Source of the DNA: a virus
Lineage: Duplodnaviria; Heunggongvirae; Uroviricota; Caudoviricetes
Length of the DNA: 33,990 nucleotides
Virus record (IMG/VR): IMGVR_UViG_2737471857_000019
Reading direction: 5' to 3' (one strand)
Under the pieces are notes generated by a model, which was given only the letters and a program-made list of their open reading frames with translations, did no database searches and was not told the origin of the DNA. Position numbers and translations under genes: made by a program. Below are positions 2,325-7,067 of this stretch, piece by piece (the first letter of the stretch is position 1; the number at the start of each line of letters is the position of its first letter).

Positions 2325-2341
2325 TTTAAAAGGTGTTTAAT

Positions 2342-3235
2342 ATGAGTTTAATTACGCAATTAAATGACGTAATGGTCCGTTGCGGCTATACACAGACCCA
2401 CGTTGGCCGCGCAATTGGTCGTAGTAGCGCCGTTATCAACCAGTACTTACAGGGTAAATATGTAGGTGACGTTACTGACGTTGAAGAGCGTATCTCTTCC
2501 TTTGTCAGTCGTGAGCTGGAGAAGCAAAGTAATCGTCGTGTTAAAGCGAAATTTGTCGCCACGGAAATGGCAGATAAAGGGTTGGAGATGCTCTCTTATG
2601 CTCATGCGTATTGTGAAATCTGTGTGCTACATGGCGAGGCTGGTCTTGGAAAAACAATGATTCTGAGTGAATACGCCGCCAGAAACCGGGATGCGATACT
2701 GATTGAGGCTGACACAGGCTATACAGCCAGGGCGCTACTCGGGGAGCTGTGTCGCCAGCTGGGGGTAAAGGTTCGCGGCAGTATTCACGAACTGATTGAT
2801 ATCTGTGTGCGCGAACTGCGTGATTCCGGTCGTCTGCTGATGGTGGATGAAGCCGAGCTGCTCCCCTACCGTGCACTGGAGGTTCTGCGCCGTCTGCATG
2901 ACAAGGCGGGGATCGGGATTGTCCTGGCGGGTATGCCACGCCTTGTAACCAATCTTAAGGGTAATCGTGGTGAGTTTGCTCAGTTATACAGTCGTGTGGG
3001 CGTGGCGCTTGATATGGGGAGTGCGTTGTCGCCAGAGGATTTTACTCCAATAGCTACAGGATTGATGCCGGAAGCGGAAACGCCAGAAATCAGCGAGGCG
3101 CTTTACACGTATTCGCGTGGTAACGCCCGTCGCCTGTTCAAACTGGTGCGTGGCGTGTACCGGATGAGTGATGTCACCAAAGTGCCGGTGAGCGTGAAAG
3201 CCATTGAGAAATTCTCCGAAATGTTAATTAAGTGA
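2342..3235 (+). CDS. MuB-like AAA+ ATPase (target DNA activator / transposition helper)
   Basis: Walker A GEAGLGKT and Walker B LLMVDEAE; N-terminal HTH-like segment; follows the transposase. Track start 2333 is GTG; ATG at 2342 has the better spacing to AAAGG. Confidence 0.85.
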   Translation: MSLITQLNDVMVRCGYTQTHVGRAIGRSSAVINQYLQGKYVGDVTDVEERISSFVSRELEKQSNRRVKAKFVATEMADKGLEMLSYAHAYCEICVLHGEAGLGKTMILSEYAARNRDAILIEADTGYTARALLGELCRQLGVKVRGSIHELIDICVRELRDSGRLLMVDEAELLPYRALEVLRRLHDKAGIGIVLAGMPRLVTNLKGNRGEFAQLYSRVGVALDMGSALSPEDFTPIATGLMPEAETPEISEALYTYSRGNARRLFKLVRGVYRMSDVTKVPVSVKAIEKFSEMLIK

Positions 3236-3244
3236 TTGGGGGGC

Positions 3245-3577
3245 ATGGAAAAAGTGGCTCTCAGAAATGAAATCAGGGCACTCAGGAATATTGGTTGTCA
3301 TGGGCGCGTTTATTTTGATGGAACCCCTGGTGAAATTATTCCGTTTGTTGATTGCCGCGTACCGGGTGAACTGTGCGTTGATTTGTATTCCCGGGAAAGG
3401 GAAATCAATGGAACCGGAAATACCAGCGATGACTGGGACGTTGATGAATGCTGTGCGCGATTAATGATTATCCCTTTTGAGCAGAATTTACAGGGGTTTC
3501 GCCGGGCTTATCGTCTTGCGCGTATGTGTGCCCGTCTTCCCCGTTATCAGCCACGGCTTGCGTTTGCACTCAGATAA
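3245..3577 (+). CDS. hypothetical early-region protein (~110 aa)
   Basis: ORF starting right after the MuB stop with a G-rich SD; Cys-rich; no recognisable family. Confidence 0.4.
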   Translation: MEKVALRNEIRALRNIGCHGRVYFDGTPGEIIPFVDCRVPGELCVDLYSREREINGTGNTSDDWDVDECCARLMIIPFEQNLQGFRRAYRLARMCARLPRYQPRLAFALR

Positions 3578-3603
3578 TGCAGCAGAGAAATGTTAATTCA
3601 CTG

Positions 3604-3843
3604 ATGGAGAACAAAATGATGGAAAAGCAGACCATTAATGCCGTCCGTTCCCGTGCCCGTGTGGCTATCCACACCACTGGCGGTCGTGTAACGGGGCAAC
3701 ATCACCGTTTACCTGTGGTTTATGCCTGCCCGCCCGTGGGTGGTCCTGTGTGGCCGGTAACGGAAATCATCCAGACATTCAGCGGCCTGCGCCGCGTGGT
3801 GAAAACGTCCTGTATCGACGGCTGTACCGTCGTATGGCAGTAA
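3604..3843 (+). CDS. hypothetical early-region protein (~75-80 aa)
   Basis: ORF in the early operon; start may be ATG 3616/3619 behind GGAG. Confidence 0.35.
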   Translation: MENKMMEKQTINAVRSRARVAIHTTGGRVTGQHHRLPVVYACPPVGGPVWPVTEIIQTFSGLRRVVKTSCIDGCTVVWQ

Positions 3844-3857
3844 AGAGAGGAATCAGA

Positions 3858-4109
3858 ATGAGTGTAAAACTATCTGTCGAATTTACAGAAATTGGGGGCG
3901 GTAAATGCCGGATTATGATGAAGATTGACAGGTCTGACTTTCAGACAGACGAAGAGATGGCCCGCGCGGTTAGTATGGCCGGAGCCATGATGGCTGTACT
4001 GAAAGAGCATCATGAGAACGAGGTAATTGATTTACAGGTTAACGGAGGGCGTCCCGTGCAATTAACGCCGGATGCTGTGTCAGGAACAGCAGGAAATCAG
4101 ATGCATTAA
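3858..4109 (+). CDS. hypothetical small acidic protein (83 aa)
   Basis: ATG 3858 with AGAGAGG SD; N-terminus MSVKLSVEF resembles the next ORF (MAVKLEVIIY). Confidence 0.5.
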   Translation: MSVKLSVEFTEIGGGKCRIMMKIDRSDFQTDEEMARAVSMAGAMMAVLKEHHENEVIDLQVNGGRPVQLTPDAVSGTAGNQMH

Positions 4110-4119
4110 GGAGTAAAAC

Positions 4120-4335
4120 ATGGCGGTTAAGTTAGAAGTAATTATCTATACCGATGAAAAAGGCTGTGTTTTAACCCAGACCACGGGGAGTTATTCGGAG
4201 GACGGAGCTTCCGAAAAGGAGTTTCAGGTGGCAACAAGATTACATGATGTTATCAAGGAAACGCTTAGAAATGACTATAACGGCGTGAATCTTTTTTCTG
4301 AAAACGTTGCGCCTCGCGCACATAACACACATTAA
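4120..4335 (+). CDS. hypothetical small acidic protein (71 aa), possible paralogue of 3858-4109
   Basis: ATG with AAGGAG SD; N-terminal similarity to the preceding ORF. Confidence 0.5.
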   Translation: MAVKLEVIIYTDEKGCVLTQTTGSYSEDGASEKEFQVATRLHDVIKETLRNDYNGVNLFSENVAPRAHNTH

Positions 4336-4424
4336 TCTGTAAATATCACTGAGGTAATTTAATTATGACGGCTGAAAATAAAGTTAAGCAATACACGAAA
4401 ACTTAAGCGCCTGAAGGTTATTGG

Positions 4425-5009
4425 GTGGATGCCCGTGGCGTAATGACACCTGAAAGCCTTATCAAAGATATTGACCGCGACCGCGAGCAGCTGGTCGGTG
4501 AGCTTGTGGAGATGGTGATTGCTGCCTCCGCCTCACTGCGGGAACTGAAACTGCGTGCGTTTGGTGATATCCAGGCATTTATTGACCTGTCGGCGGAGAA
4601 ATACGGCGCTGTGAAAGGCGGCAAAAAAGGCAATATCACGCTTTACAGCTTTGACGGGCGATACAAGATTCAGCGCGCCATGCAGGACCGTATCGCGTTT
4701 GATGAACGCATTCAGACCGCGAAGTCGCTGATTGATGATTGCCTGGCTGACTGGACGGAAGGTGCGCGCCCTGAAATTAAAGCCATCATTAGCGAGGCAT
4801 TCAGCACGGACAAGGAAGGCAACATTAACACAGGGCGCGTTCTGGCCCTGCGTCGCCTCGAAATTGAGGACGAACGCTGGAATAACGCCATGATGCTGAT
4901 TGGTGAAGCCGTCCAGGTGATTGGCAGCAAGAGCTATATTCGTGTGTATGAGCGCGTTGGTGATTCTGATGAATACCGCGCAATCCCGCTTGATATTGCA
5001 GGGGTTTAA
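4425..5009 (+). CDS. hypothetical early protein, possibly DUF3164-like (194 aa)
   Basis: GTG start with GAAGG SD; size and position fit a family I recall from Mu-like prophages; assignment from memory only. Confidence 0.35.
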   Translation: MDARGVMTPESLIKDIDRDREQLVGELVEMVIAASASLRELKLRAFGDIQAFIDLSAEKYGAVKGGKKGNITLYSFDGRYKIQRAMQDRIAFDERIQTAKSLIDDCLADWTEGARPEIKAIISEAFSTDKEGNINTGRVLALRRLEIEDERWNNAMMLIGEAVQVIGSKSYIRVYERVGDSDEYRAIPLDIAGV

Positions 5010-5010
5010 C

Positions 5011-5244
5011 ATGCATCAGGATATCAAAGAGTACAGAGCCGGAAATCGTTGCGCGGCGTATTCGCTGGGTGCATCCAGAGCAGAACAACGCGGCGATTAT
5101 GATGAGGCAGAAAAACTGTGGCGCAAGGCAGCGCAAAGCCCGTGTAGCACCCTGCGCCGCATCTGGGCTGAACATCGTGCGGAGTTCTGCGCTAACGCTC
5201 ACCTGAAGGGCTGGAGGCCACGCCATGAATGCGAAGAACTTTAA
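5011..5244 (+). CDS. small protein, possibly ANR-family regulator-like (77 aa)
   Basis: ATG 2 nt after the upstream stop; pattern GDYDEAEKLWRKA...RIWAEHRAEFC resembles ANR-type small proteins as recalled. Confidence 0.3.
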   Translation: MHQDIKEYRAGNRCAAYSLGASRAEQRGDYDEAEKLWRKAAQSPCSTLRRIWAEHRAEFCANAHLKGWRPRHECEEL

Positions 5245-5416
5245 TAAGCAGTATCCGGTAGGGACTCGCTTCATGCACACTGCACATCCGGCGTTGCGTG
5301 GTGGTCGTGTGGTGAAAACCGTTTCACCTGCCAGAGATTTTAAATGTGGTTGTGTGGTTGAAATTAATGTCGAGCCTTATTTCGTTAAAATCGAAACACT
5401 GAAAGCACCGCATTAA
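5225..5416 (+). CDS. hypothetical small protein (63 aa)
   Basis: ORF overlapping the previous stop; no family recognised. Confidence 0.3.
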   Translation: MNAKNFNKQYPVGTRFMHTAHPALRGGRVVKTVSPARDFKCGCVVEINVEPYFVKIETLKAPH

Positions 5417-6839: not shown

Positions 6840-7067
6840 ATGGCTTTTAAACTTCTCAGTGTTACCGAAGCAATATACCAGCCGCCAGGAGAACGCCACG
6901 AATACAGGATGAATGACGGCAGCGCGGCGGTTGAGTTTCCCAAATATCCGGGGGCTTCCCGGTGGCGGTTCTATGACAGTGCGGGACGCCGGATTATTAA
7001 AAGAATCGTGCACAACGCCATGAAAGCCGCTGTAGAACGTCACAAAAGGAGGTTTAACTGCAAATGA
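6840..7067 (+). CDS. hypothetical early protein (75 aa)
   Basis: ORF translationally coupled to its neighbours (ATGA overlap with the next ORF). Confidence 0.35.
   Translation: MAFKLLSVTEAIYQPPGERHEYRMNDGSAAVEFPKYPGASRWRFYDSAGRRIIKRIVHNAMKAAVERHKRRFNCK

What the first reader, a model, noticed from the sequence alone, without database searches (positions are those of the whole stretch)
3245..4335. Cluster of four small early proteins immediately after MuB, including a possible paralogue pair
Four 70-110 aa ORFs with good SDs have no recognisable family. Two of them start MSVKLSVEF and MAVKLEVIIY and are similarly sized and acidic, suggesting a local duplication. The Mu semi-essential early region is where host-takeover and anti-defence functions reside, so these are candidates for uncharacterised inhibitors.
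Basis: inference. Interest (0 to 1): 0.4.

Follow-up and report, generated by a model that had tools for sequence, protein, structure and literature searches.

The report
Small early genes after MuB
Four real small genes follow the transposition ATPase gene of a Mu-like E. coli prophage: one is the phage's host-killing Kil protein, and the other three are uncharacterised, frequently swapped accessory genes, two of which are at most very ancient relatives.

Summary
The four ORFs exist as described: 3245-3577, 3616-3843, 3858-4109 and 4120-4335, all on the + strand. All four evolve under purifying selection.

"No recognisable family" is wrong for ORF2. It is a Kil homologue (phrog_2679, E 1e-35; C-terminal motif shared with Mu Kil).

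ORF1, ORF3 and ORF4 have no Pfam, NCBIfam, PADLOC or PDB match. Their families are narrow and restricted to Enterobacterales.

ORF3 and ORF4 show no pairwise similarity (BLASTP finds nothing; Smith-Waterman is at chance). They are not a recent local duplication.
- AlphaFold gives both the same strand-strand-helix core.
- A profile of ORF4 relatives from six further genera aligns to the ORF3 family over 46 columns (P 4e-4; 0 of 100 shuffles reach the score).
- Distant common ancestry is therefore plausible but unproven.

Across 32 related loci, the stretch between MuB and DUF3164 takes 11 architectures.
- Kil and ORF4 are always present.
- ORF1, ORF3 and a 63-aa gene absent from this window are optional.
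- ORF4 carries a roughly 150-bp divergent core inside near-identical flanks.

No link to Mu E6 (Gnarl2) was found.

Verdict: an ordinary but well-defined accessory early region. The function of three of the four genes remains inferred.

The parts
2333..3235 (+). MuB-like AAA+ transposition ATPase. It is the conserved upstream flank of the variable region (context).
   Evidence: 300-aa ORF. Annotated 'AAA family ATPase' in relatives. Pfam AAA_22 and TniB hits are on record for the identical gene in L025-L027. It follows a 680-aa Mu-transposase gene.
3245..3577 (+). ORF1: a 110-aa, mildly basic (pI 8.3) optional accessory early gene of unknown function.
   Evidence: No Pfam, PHROG, NCBIfam, PADLOC or PDB match. 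Only 6 protein clusters exist, from E. coli and Salmonella. pN/pS is 0.14-0.34 in this frame. Present in 11 of 32 related loci. There is a weak N-terminal resemblance to Mu gp8/E7: 0 of 120 shuffles reach the hhalign score, but 208 of 3000 reach the Smith-Waterman score.
3616..3843 (+). ORF2: a Kil homologue (75 aa, pI 10.3). It is the conserved core gene of the region.
   Evidence: phrog_2679 'Kil' at E 1.1e-35, and phrog_2743 (Mu Kil's own family) at 0.0045. Mu Kil hits phrog_2679 at 9e-5. BLASTP against Mu Kil gives 34% over the C-terminal 44 aa, E 2e-5. hhalign P is 2.8e-4. Present in all 32 related loci at 91-99% identity. pN/pS is 0.02-0.15.
3858..4109 (+). ORF3: an 83-aa acidic optional accessory gene with a predicted strand-strand-helix-strand fold.
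   Evidence: phrog_35084 at E 2e-13. Only two real relatives appear among 1.84 billion representative proteins. Three divergent types exist, 37-45% identical to each other. pN/pS is 0.31-0.48. AF2 pLDDT is 74.6, with E4-13, E16-24, H31-51 and E56-61. Present in 17 of 32 loci. Absent from 5426 complete E. coli genomes, but the exact protein is recorded in 98 index blocks of the public assembly collection.
4120..4335 (+). ORF4: a 71-aa acidic gene that always occupies the slot just upstream of DUF3164. Predicted strand-strand-helix core with a disordered tail.
   Evidence: phrog_7438 at E 1.3e-51. 21 protein clusters, all named ones from Enterobacteriaceae. Present in all 32 related loci. Relatives lie upstream of DUF3164 in Xenorhabdus, Photorhabdus, Pantoea and Morganella. 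AF2 pLDDT is 68.7, with E3-11, E17-25 and H32-53. pN/pS is 0.18-0.66.
4159..4302 (+). Divergent core of ORF4 (codons 14-61). It exists as discrete allele types inside near-identical flanks.
   Evidence: Window versus L018: 55% nucleotide identity in the core (pN 0.43, pS 0.52). The first 13 codons are 95% identical. Kil and DUF3164 on either side are mostly 93-100% identical per 30-nt window.
4365..5009 (+). DUF3164 gene, the conserved downstream flank. In this window it is interrupted by a TAA at codon 14 (4404-4406).
   Evidence: Pfam DUF3164 at E 6e-80. Relatives encode 214 aa with CAA (Gln) where the window has TAA.

Best explanation
The segment is the promoter-proximal part of the accessory ('semi-essential') early region of a Mu-like transposable prophage of E. 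coli.

The four genes are closely packed on one strand, behind the transposase (A) and MuB-like genes. I infer that they are read as part of the same early transcript.

- ORF2 is the phage's Kil protein. It is a small basic protein and is fixed in every relative. By homology to Mu Kil, it is expected to stop normal growth of the host cell envelope and kill the host when expressed.
- ORF1 and ORF3 are optional cassettes that come and go between otherwise near-identical prophages.
- ORF4 always occupies the slot in front of DUF3164, but its middle is exchanged between deeply diverged allele types.
- ORF3 and ORF4 are small, mildly acidic proteins with the same predicted beta-hairpin plus helix core. 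They are probably very old relatives, not a recent duplication.
- The most likely role of ORF1, ORF3 and ORF4 is as enzyme-less binding proteins that modulate host or competitor targets early in the lytic cycle.

Shown here: gene reality, Kil homology, the mosaic architecture and the predicted fold.
Inferred: co-transcription, the Kil phenotype, and any host-directed role of ORF1, ORF3 and ORF4.
For: Gene reality: pN/pS is below 1 for all four genes.

Operon layout:
- Intergenic gaps are 9-38 nt.
- Promoter-like and terminator-like sites are not enriched.
- No Rfam family matches.

Kil homology:
- PHROG matches in both directions.
- BLASTP against Mu Kil, E 2e-5.
- hhalign P 2.8e-4.
- In Mixta, Yersinia and Serratia prophages the same ORFs score with both Kil-type HMMs, strongly only in Mixta.
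- Mu kil expression gives spherical E. coli cells (Waggoner 1989, as cited in PMC3961180).

Accessory character:
- 11 architectures occur in 32 loci. Kil and ORF4 are constant; ORF1, ORF3 and x63 are found in many different combinations.
- ORF4 has a sharply bounded divergent core.

Shared fold and remote relatedness of ORF3 and ORF4:
- AF2 models.
- Six targets are shared between the two BFVD top-50 lists.
- The extended profile comparison gives P 3.9e-4 and z 7.
- HMM ranking of ORF3 types.

Precedent: Mu E6, a small early accessory protein, alters O-antigen and phage sensitivity (PMC12373910).
Against: - No function was tested. No match to any defence or anti-defence model was found, and PADLOC is a defence library, not an anti-defence one.
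- The reciprocal ORF3 profile does not retrieve ORF4 above noise (E 3-5).
- Column shuffles destroy secondary-structure periodicity, so z 7 may reflect shared architecture rather than ancestry.
- The AF2 models are of only moderate confidence (pLDDT 69 and 75), and their alignments are shallow.
- The conserved adjacency of ORF4 to DUF3164 could mean a phage-internal role rather than a host-directed one.
- No significant similarity to Mu E6 (Gnarl2) was found.
Confidence: 0.6

Rival explanations
1. ORF3 and ORF4 are unrelated genes. They merely converge on an N-terminal beta-strand (M-x-V-K-L) and a common small strand-strand-helix architecture, so the 'paralogue pair' is an illusion.
For: - No pairwise similarity.
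- Comparison of the close families is at chance once the Met is removed: 8 of 120 shuffles reach the score.
- The ORF3 HMM does not find ORF4 above noise.
- A third ORF at 6840 also starts MAFKL.
- Strand-strand-helix is a common small fold, and no specific fold family was found.
Against: - The extended ORF4 profile aligns to the ORF3 family across all three secondary-structure elements, with P 3.9e-4, and 0 of 100 shuffles reach the score.
- All three ORF3 types rank ahead of about 6000 unrelated ORFs.
- The sequence alignment agrees with the independently predicted element boundaries.
- Both families end in a C-terminal His.
Confidence: 0.35
2. ORF4, and perhaps ORF3, works with the adjacent DUF3164 protein in phage DNA metabolism or transposition rather than acting on the host. 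The divergent core would track a phage partner.
For: - ORF4 is present in all 32 related loci, always directly upstream of DUF3164.
- ORF4-family genes lie upstream of DUF3164, mostly adjacent to it, in Xenorhabdus, Photorhabdus, Pantoea and Morganella.
Against: - The ORF4 allele type does not track the DUF3164 variant. Type-2 alleles occur with DUF3164 copies 94-99.5% identical to the window's.
- The window's DUF3164 carries a nonsense codon while ORF4 is intact.
- Most DUF3164 loci outside Enterobacterales have no detectable ORF4 relative.
Confidence: 0.2
3. ORF3 and/or ORF4 are functional equivalents of Mu E6 (Gnarl2): small early proteins that alter host O-antigen/LPS and so change susceptibility to other phages.
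For: - Mu E6 is a small acidic protein (87 aa, pI 5.6) that lies two genes downstream of kil.
- E6 is reported to downshift O-antigen bands and sensitise wild E. coli to T5.
- ORF3 and ORF4 have similar size, charge and position, an N-terminal strand and a C-terminal His.
Against: - Profile comparisons of ORF3, ORF4 and x63 with a 15-sequence E6 family are at chance: 32, 13 and 62 of 100 shuffles reach the score.
- The extended ORF4 profile against E6 gives z -0.1.
- Only an 11-residue N-terminal strand links E6 to a third group of proteins.
- The target of Gnarl2 is itself unknown.
Confidence: 0.12
4. Some of the four ORFs are chance open frames or decaying remnants with no function.
For: - The families are very narrow.
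- One public gene caller picked a different 54-aa frame inside ORF1.
- The prophage carries a nonsense mutation in DUF3164.
Against: - pN/pS is well below 1 in the stated frames.
- Substitutions in ORF1 fall mainly on its third codon positions ([11, 4, 28]). In the alternative frame most of them would fall on second positions.
- ORF3 keeps its frame and length at 37-45% identity.
Confidence: 0.03

Closest known systems
Bacteriophage Mu Kil (gp5; PHROG 2743 and 2679)
   Same: ORF2 has the same size (75 vs 74 aa). It occupies the same place in the early operon behind B. It shares the C-terminal motif PPV...SG..R.V.T....GC..(I/V)W(Q/R) at the very end. PHROG matches run in both directions.
   Different: Only about 34% identity, confined to the C-terminal half, with an unrelated N-terminal half. 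In this window ORF1 sits between B and Kil. The killing and cell-rounding phenotype was not tested for this subfamily.
Mu E6 / Mup07 = Gnarl2 (Silas et al., PMC12373910)
   Same: It is a small acidic early accessory protein near kil. It starts with a hydrophobic beta-strand-like N-terminus (MAKVIIEI) and ends in His. It lies in a region that varies between related phages.
   Different: No significant sequence or profile similarity to ORF3, ORF4 or x63. The fold of E6 was not predicted here. The O-antigen phenotype was not tested.
Mu E7 / gp8 (phrog_3690, function unknown)
   Same: The N-terminal helix motif of ORF1, V-x-(L/I)-RNEI-x-AL-x-x-I, matches that of E7 (8 of 13 identical). A YRL...AR motif follows later in the same order.
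   Different: E7 is 139 aa, ORF1 is 110 aa. Statistical support is inconsistent: 0 of 120 shuffles reach the hhalign score, but 208 of 3000 reach the Smith-Waterman score. E7 has no known function, so the link would not explain ORF1.
Phage 'accessory regions' of fast-evolving counter-defence genes (Silas et al. 2023 preprint and 2025 paper)
   Same: Conserved flanks (MuB, DUF3164) enclose a variable set of small genes. Those genes occur in many combinations between near-identical genomes.
   Different: That work surveyed cultured phage genomes only. This prophage lineage has no match in the phage collection. None of these genes has a tested phenotype.

Membership tests
Mu Kil family (PHROG 2679/2743) | Significant sequence or profile similarity to Kil proteins | tested here: met
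   phrog_2679 at E 1.1e-35 and phrog_2743 at 0.0045. BLASTP against Mu Kil, E 2e-5. hhalign P 2.8e-4. Both Kil-type HMMs score the same ORFs in other genera, clearly in Mixta.
Mu Kil family (PHROG 2679/2743) | Protein of about 74 aa encoded just downstream of the B gene in the early operon | tested here: met
   75 aa. Directly after MuB in 20 of the 31 related loci that include the B gene, and after ORF1 in the window and 10 others.
Mu Kil family (PHROG 2679/2743) | Expression kills the host and makes cells spherical | not testable with these tools
   The phenotype is known for Mu kil only (PMC3961180, citing Waggoner 1989).
Gnarl2 / Mu E6 (Mup07) family, for ORF3 and ORF4 | Sequence or profile similarity to Mu E6 | tested here: not met
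   hhalign against a 15-sequence E6 family: 32 of 100 (ORF3), 13 of 100 (ORF4) and 62 of 100 (x63) shuffles reach the observed score. The extended ORF4 profile gives z -0.1.
Gnarl2 / Mu E6 (Mup07) family, for ORF3 and ORF4 | Downshift of O-antigen bands and sensitisation of wild E. coli to T5 | not testable with these tools
   Phenotype described in PMC12373910.
ORF4 family (phrog_7438; the small protein in the slot upstream of DUF3164), with ORF3 as candidate member | Pairwise or close-family sequence similarity between ORF3 and ORF4 | tested here: not met
   BLASTP finds nothing. 1651 of 3000 shuffles reach the Smith-Waterman score. 8 of 120 shuffles reach the hhalign score without the Met.
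ORF4 family (phrog_7438; the small protein in the slot upstream of DUF3164), with ORF3 as candidate member | Similarity to a family profile widened with cross-genus members | tested here: inconclusive
   hhalign P 3.9e-4 over 46 columns, and 0 of 100 shuffles reach the score. HMM E-values of 0.028-0.34 in 6004 ORFs rank ORF3 types directly below the accepted members. The reciprocal search is at noise level.
ORF4 family (phrog_7438; the small protein in the slot upstream of DUF3164), with ORF3 as candidate member | Same predicted fold | tested here: met
   ORF4: E3-11, E17-25, H32-53. ORF3: E4-13, E16-24, H31-51, plus one extra strand. pLDDT is 68.7 and 74.6. The models could not be superposed directly.
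Mu E7 / gp8 family, for ORF1 | Sequence or profile similarity to Mu gp8 | tested here: inconclusive
   hhalign E 0.011 over 28 N-terminal columns. 0 of 120 shuffles reach the hhalign score, but 208 of 3000 reach the Smith-Waterman score. ORF1 has no PHROG match, including to gp8's family phrog_3690.
Known defence-system proteins (PADLOC) and curated protein families (Pfam, NCBIfam) | Match above the family threshold | tested here: not met
   Only sub-threshold chance hits for ORF3 (Cas_NE0113 at 0.024; Csx14 at 0.008; Csx1 at 0.024). Nothing for ORF1 or ORF4.

The most novel reading that the evidence does not exclude
ORF3, ORF4 and the neighbouring optional 63-aa gene belong to one fast-diversifying superfamily of small strand-strand-helix early proteins of Enterobacterales Mu-like prophages. 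The family is marked by an N-terminal M-A/S-V-K-L strand and a C-terminal His. Its members are exchanged as cassettes or as gene cores. Each would neutralise a different host barrier or defence, or a competing phage, by direct binding, in the manner of Gnarl2.
Probability: 0.2. Interest if true: 0.55.

Novelty: new member of a known kind. Interest (0 to 1): 0.3.

Why it matters
The early accessory region of Mu is a classic but still largely unassigned block of genes. One of its small proteins (E6/Gnarl2) was recently shown to remodel host LPS.

This window offers a compact natural experiment in a related E. coli prophage lineage. One slot is fixed (Kil). One slot is always filled but has swapped cores (ORF4). 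Three cassettes are optional. Near-isogenic natural variants are already in the databases.

That makes the genes easy to test for toxicity, anti-defence or exclusion phenotypes. If they turn out to be host-directed inhibitors, they would add new small-protein families to the counter-defence catalogue. As it stands, the finding mainly corrects an annotation (ORF2 is Kil) and defines three narrow families.

Tried and rejected
Searches that returned nothing useful:
- blastn and tblastn of the region, ORF2 and ORF1 against 50,697 phage records gave nothing significant.
- Exhaustive phmmer of ORF3 against 1.84 billion representatives gave only two real relatives.
- Word-indexed homologue searches for ORF1, ORF3 and ORF4 returned only narrow enterobacterial clusters.
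- PDB sequence searches found nothing.
- The Kil-pattern scan of species-representative genomes found nothing.
- ORF3 patterns in IMG/VR found no close relative.

Ideas rejected:
- Recent tandem duplication of ORF3 and ORF4. There is no DNA or protein similarity.
- Homologous recombination through the shared 5' ends as the cause of ORF3 gain or loss. By eye, only about half of the first 24 nt match.
- In-situ positive selection as the cause of the ORF4 core divergence. Core dS is about 0.9, so the cores are old alleles exchanged by recombination.
- A zinc-finger reading of ORF1. Only three Cys are invariant.
- DNA mimicry. Net charge is only about -4.
- An RNA element or an internal promoter or terminator.

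Technical notes:
- The first attempt at hhalign shuffling timed out.
- One HMM run returned stale output and was repeated.
Full report
**What is there**

Four + strand ORFs follow the MuB-like ATPase gene (2333-3235):
- ORF1, 3245-3577, 110 aa.
- ORF2, 3616-3843, 75 aa.
- ORF3, 3858-4109, 83 aa.
- ORF4, 4120-4335, 71 aa.

The gaps between them are 9, 38, 14 and 10 nt. A DUF3164 gene follows 29 nt later.

ORF2, ORF3 and ORF4 have canonical Shine-Dalgarno sequences 6 nt upstream. ORF1 has only a G-run next to its ATG and probably relies on coupling to the MuB stop codon.

Promoter-like and terminator-like sites are not enriched, and no Rfam family matches. This fits one continuous early transcript, but transcription itself is inferred.

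The rest of the window is a nearly complete Mu-like prophage. It has Ner-like, transposase, MuB-like, DUF3164, DUF2786 and GemA genes, followed by late genes.

**Are the genes real?**

I compared the window with related loci by the Nei-Gojobori method.

| Gene | pN/pS |
|---|---|
| ORF1 | 0.14-0.34 |
| ORF2 | 0.02-0.15 |
| ORF3 | 0.31-0.48 |
| ORF4 | 0.18-0.66 |
| DUF3164 | 0-0.18 |

In the most divergent ORF1 comparisons, substitutions fall on codon positions as [11, 4, 28]. The gene caller used for some public assemblies picked a 54-aa ORF in another frame (window 3300-3464). In that frame most changes would fall on second positions, so it is not the coding frame.

**What the genes are**

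*ORF2 is a Kil homologue.*
- It matches phrog_2679 ('Kil protein for bacterial septation inhibition') at E 1.1e-35, and Mu Kil's own family phrog_2743 at 0.0045.
- Mu Kil matches phrog_2679 at 9e-5.
- BLASTP against Mu Kil gives 34% identity over the C-terminal 44 residues, E 2e-5.
- hhalign of the two subfamilies gives P 2.8e-4, with the shared motif PPV...SG..R.V.T....GC..W(Q/R) at the C-terminus.
- In Mixta, Yersinia and Serratia prophages the same ORFs score with both Kil-type HMMs. Only Mixta is strong with both.
- Mu kil expression makes E. coli spherical (Waggoner 1989, as cited in PMC3961180).

*ORF1, ORF3 and ORF4 remain unassigned.*
- They have no Pfam, NCBIfam, PADLOC or PDB-sequence match above noise.
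- ORF3 and ORF4 match PHROGs of unknown function: phrog_35084 at 2e-13 and phrog_7438 at 1e-51.
- Their families are narrow: 6 clusters for ORF1, 21 for ORF4 and 2 for ORF3.
- An exhaustive phmmer search of ORF3 against 1.84 billion representatives added only one 45%-identical protein.

**The paralogue claim**

Direct comparisons are negative.
- BLASTP finds no alignment at E <= 100.
- 1651 of 3000 shuffles reach the Smith-Waterman score.
- With the trivial initiator Met removed, 8 of 120 column shuffles reach the hhalign score of the two close families.
- The M-[SA]-V-K-L start also occurs in a third early ORF at 6840 (MAFKLLSV).
- A recent local duplication is excluded.

Three observations keep an ancient relationship open.

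1. AlphaFold2 gives the same core for both proteins. ORF4 has E3-11, E17-25 and H32-53 (pLDDT 68.7). ORF3 has E4-13, E16-24 and H31-51, plus an extra strand at 56-61 (pLDDT 74.6). The two BFVD top-50 lists share six targets, although no hit is significant.

2. I anchored a search on DUF3164 and fetched 51 loci from other species. Small proteins upstream of DUF3164 (directly adjacent in most cases) in Xenorhabdus, Photorhabdus, Pantoea and Morganella belong to the ORF4 family. An example is MAVKIEILITSESGEL...QHNLH. An iterative HMM search accepted them at E 1e-4 to 1e-8 under a conservative database size, and Morganella at 8e-5.

3. This extended 28-sequence profile, with the Met removed, aligns to the ORF3 family over 46 columns covering both strands and the helix. 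The score is 24.0, P is 3.9e-4, and 0 of 100 shuffles reach it (maximum 17.1, z 7.0). As an HMM, it ranks all three ORF3 types directly below the accepted members among 6004 ORFs. Only two same-slot ORFs are interleaved with them. The ORF3 E-values are 0.028-0.34, and noise starts at 1.6.

There are caveats. The reciprocal ORF3 HMM finds ORF4 only at E 3-5. Column shuffling also destroys secondary-structure periodicity, so shared architecture alone could raise the score.

I put distant homology at roughly 60%.

**No link to Mu E6 or E7**

By eye, ORF3 and ORF4 resemble Mu E6 and ORF1 resembles Mu E7.

Mu E6/Mup07 is Gnarl2. It is a small accessory protein that downshifts O-antigen bands and sensitises wild E. 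coli to T5. Its target is unknown (bioRxiv 10.1101/2023.04.06.535777; PMC12373910).

I built a 15-sequence E6 family from IMG/VR. It showed no similarity to ORF3, ORF4 or x63 above chance. The extended ORF4 profile showed none either (z -0.1). Only an 11-residue N-terminal strand links E6 to a third group of proteins that start MAKVII and lie upstream of DUF3164.

The ORF1-E7 link is inconsistent: 0 of 120 shuffles reach the hhalign score, but 208 of 3000 reach the Smith-Waterman score.

**Comparative anatomy**

Related prophages occur in 58 of 5426 complete E. coli genomes. They also occur in IMG/VR and in draft assemblies.

Across 32 loci of this lineage, the stretch between MuB and DUF3164 takes 11 architectures.
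- Kil is always present, at 91-99% identity.
- ORF4 is always present.
- ORF1 is in 11 loci.
- ORF3 is in 17 loci, as three types 37-45% identical to each other.
- A 59-63 aa gene, x63, is absent from this window. Where present, it overlaps the start of ORF4. It occurs in many combinations with the other genes.

The window's exact ORF3 is absent from all complete E. coli genomes. It is, however, recorded in 98 index blocks of the public assembly collection. GCA_025684895.1 is 100% identical from MuB through ORF4.

ORF4 exists as discrete allele types.
- Between the window and L018, codons 14-61 are 55% identical at the nucleotide level (pN 0.43, pS 0.52, dS about 0.9).
- The first 13 codons are 95% identical.
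- Kil and DUF3164 on either side are mostly 93-100% identical per 30-nt window, and the last 24 nt of ORF4 plus the spacer match completely.
- This points to exchange of old alleles by recombination at conserved gene ends, not in-situ hypermutation.

**Interpretation**

This is the accessory early region of a Mu-like prophage. It contains one conserved host-killing gene (Kil), two optional cassettes (ORF1 and ORF3) and one always-filled but mosaic slot (ORF4).

The small size, the lack of any enzyme-like features, the mild acidity of ORF3 and ORF4, the fast protein evolution and the cassette behaviour all point the same way. So does the Gnarl2 precedent. A role as binding modulators of host or competitor targets is the best guess.

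A phage-internal role with DUF3164 is a serious rival for ORF4, because of the conserved adjacency. Nothing here demonstrates an anti-defence function.

**Verdict**

The annotation claim is wrong for ORF2. The duplication idea holds only as a possible ancient relationship. The finding is a new set of members of a known kind of region, and its interest is moderate to low until phenotypes are measured.

Noticed in passing
window 4365-5009 (TAA at 4404-4406): The DUF3164 gene carries a premature TAA at codon 14, where E. coli relatives have CAA (Gln). The relatives encode 214 aa. The remaining frame can restart only at GTG 4425 (194 aa). Contigs otherwise identical to the window have the intact gene.
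   Followed up: partly
window 3300-3464 (+), inside ORF1: Public assemblies (L025-L027) call a 54-aa gene in another frame here instead of the 110-aa ORF1. The codon-position pattern of substitutions shows that the 110-aa frame is the coding one.
   Followed up: yes
L001:2525-2716, L008:3820-4011 and others; absent from the window between 4109 and 4120: A further optional 59-63 aa acidic gene (x63, MSLELELTFSLDRPGK...KHGG) sits between ORF3 and ORF4 in many relatives. It overlaps the ORF4 start by about 10 nt. It is present but unannotated in RefSeq record NZ_OY754349 (L003).
   Followed up: partly
L054 (E. coli RM9088, NZ_CP042298.1), locus 1962-2984: An IS1A element has inserted into ORF4 in this strain, leaving a 44-aa stump. 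The gene is therefore dispensable for prophage maintenance.
   Followed up: no
window 4107-4109, 4333-4335, 5414-5416; L055-L070; Mu gp7: Many small early proteins of these prophages end exactly in His. Examples are ORF3 (..NQMH), ORF4 (..HNTH), the 63-aa ORF at 5225-5416 (..KAPH), relatives in six genera (..NVH, HVH, NLH, NIH) and Mu E6 (..KTCH). I could not tell whether this is a functional C-terminal motif.
   Followed up: no
window 6840-7067 (+): A third early ORF (75 aa, basic by composition) begins MAFKLLSV, close to the MSVKL and MAVKL starts of ORF3 and ORF4. This weakens the N-terminus as evidence of homology.
   Followed up: partly
L062, L066, L067, L068, L098 (Trabulsiella, Yersinia, Kosakonia, Serratia, Pantoea), just upstream of DUF3164: A separate group of 63-85 aa proteins starts MAK(V/I)(V/I)I, and most end in ..N/H-V-H. 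They occupy the slot upstream of DUF3164. They share only the N-terminal strand with Mu E6/Gnarl2 (hhalign over 11 columns, z 6.1), and they resemble ORF3 weakly (P 0.027, z 3.4).
   Followed up: partly
L030-L033 versus the window, MuB to DUF3164: The same ORF3 type (83-92% identical) occurs with the type-2 ORF4 allele and without ORF1 in other E. coli assemblies. The three variable elements therefore reassort independently.
   Followed up: yes
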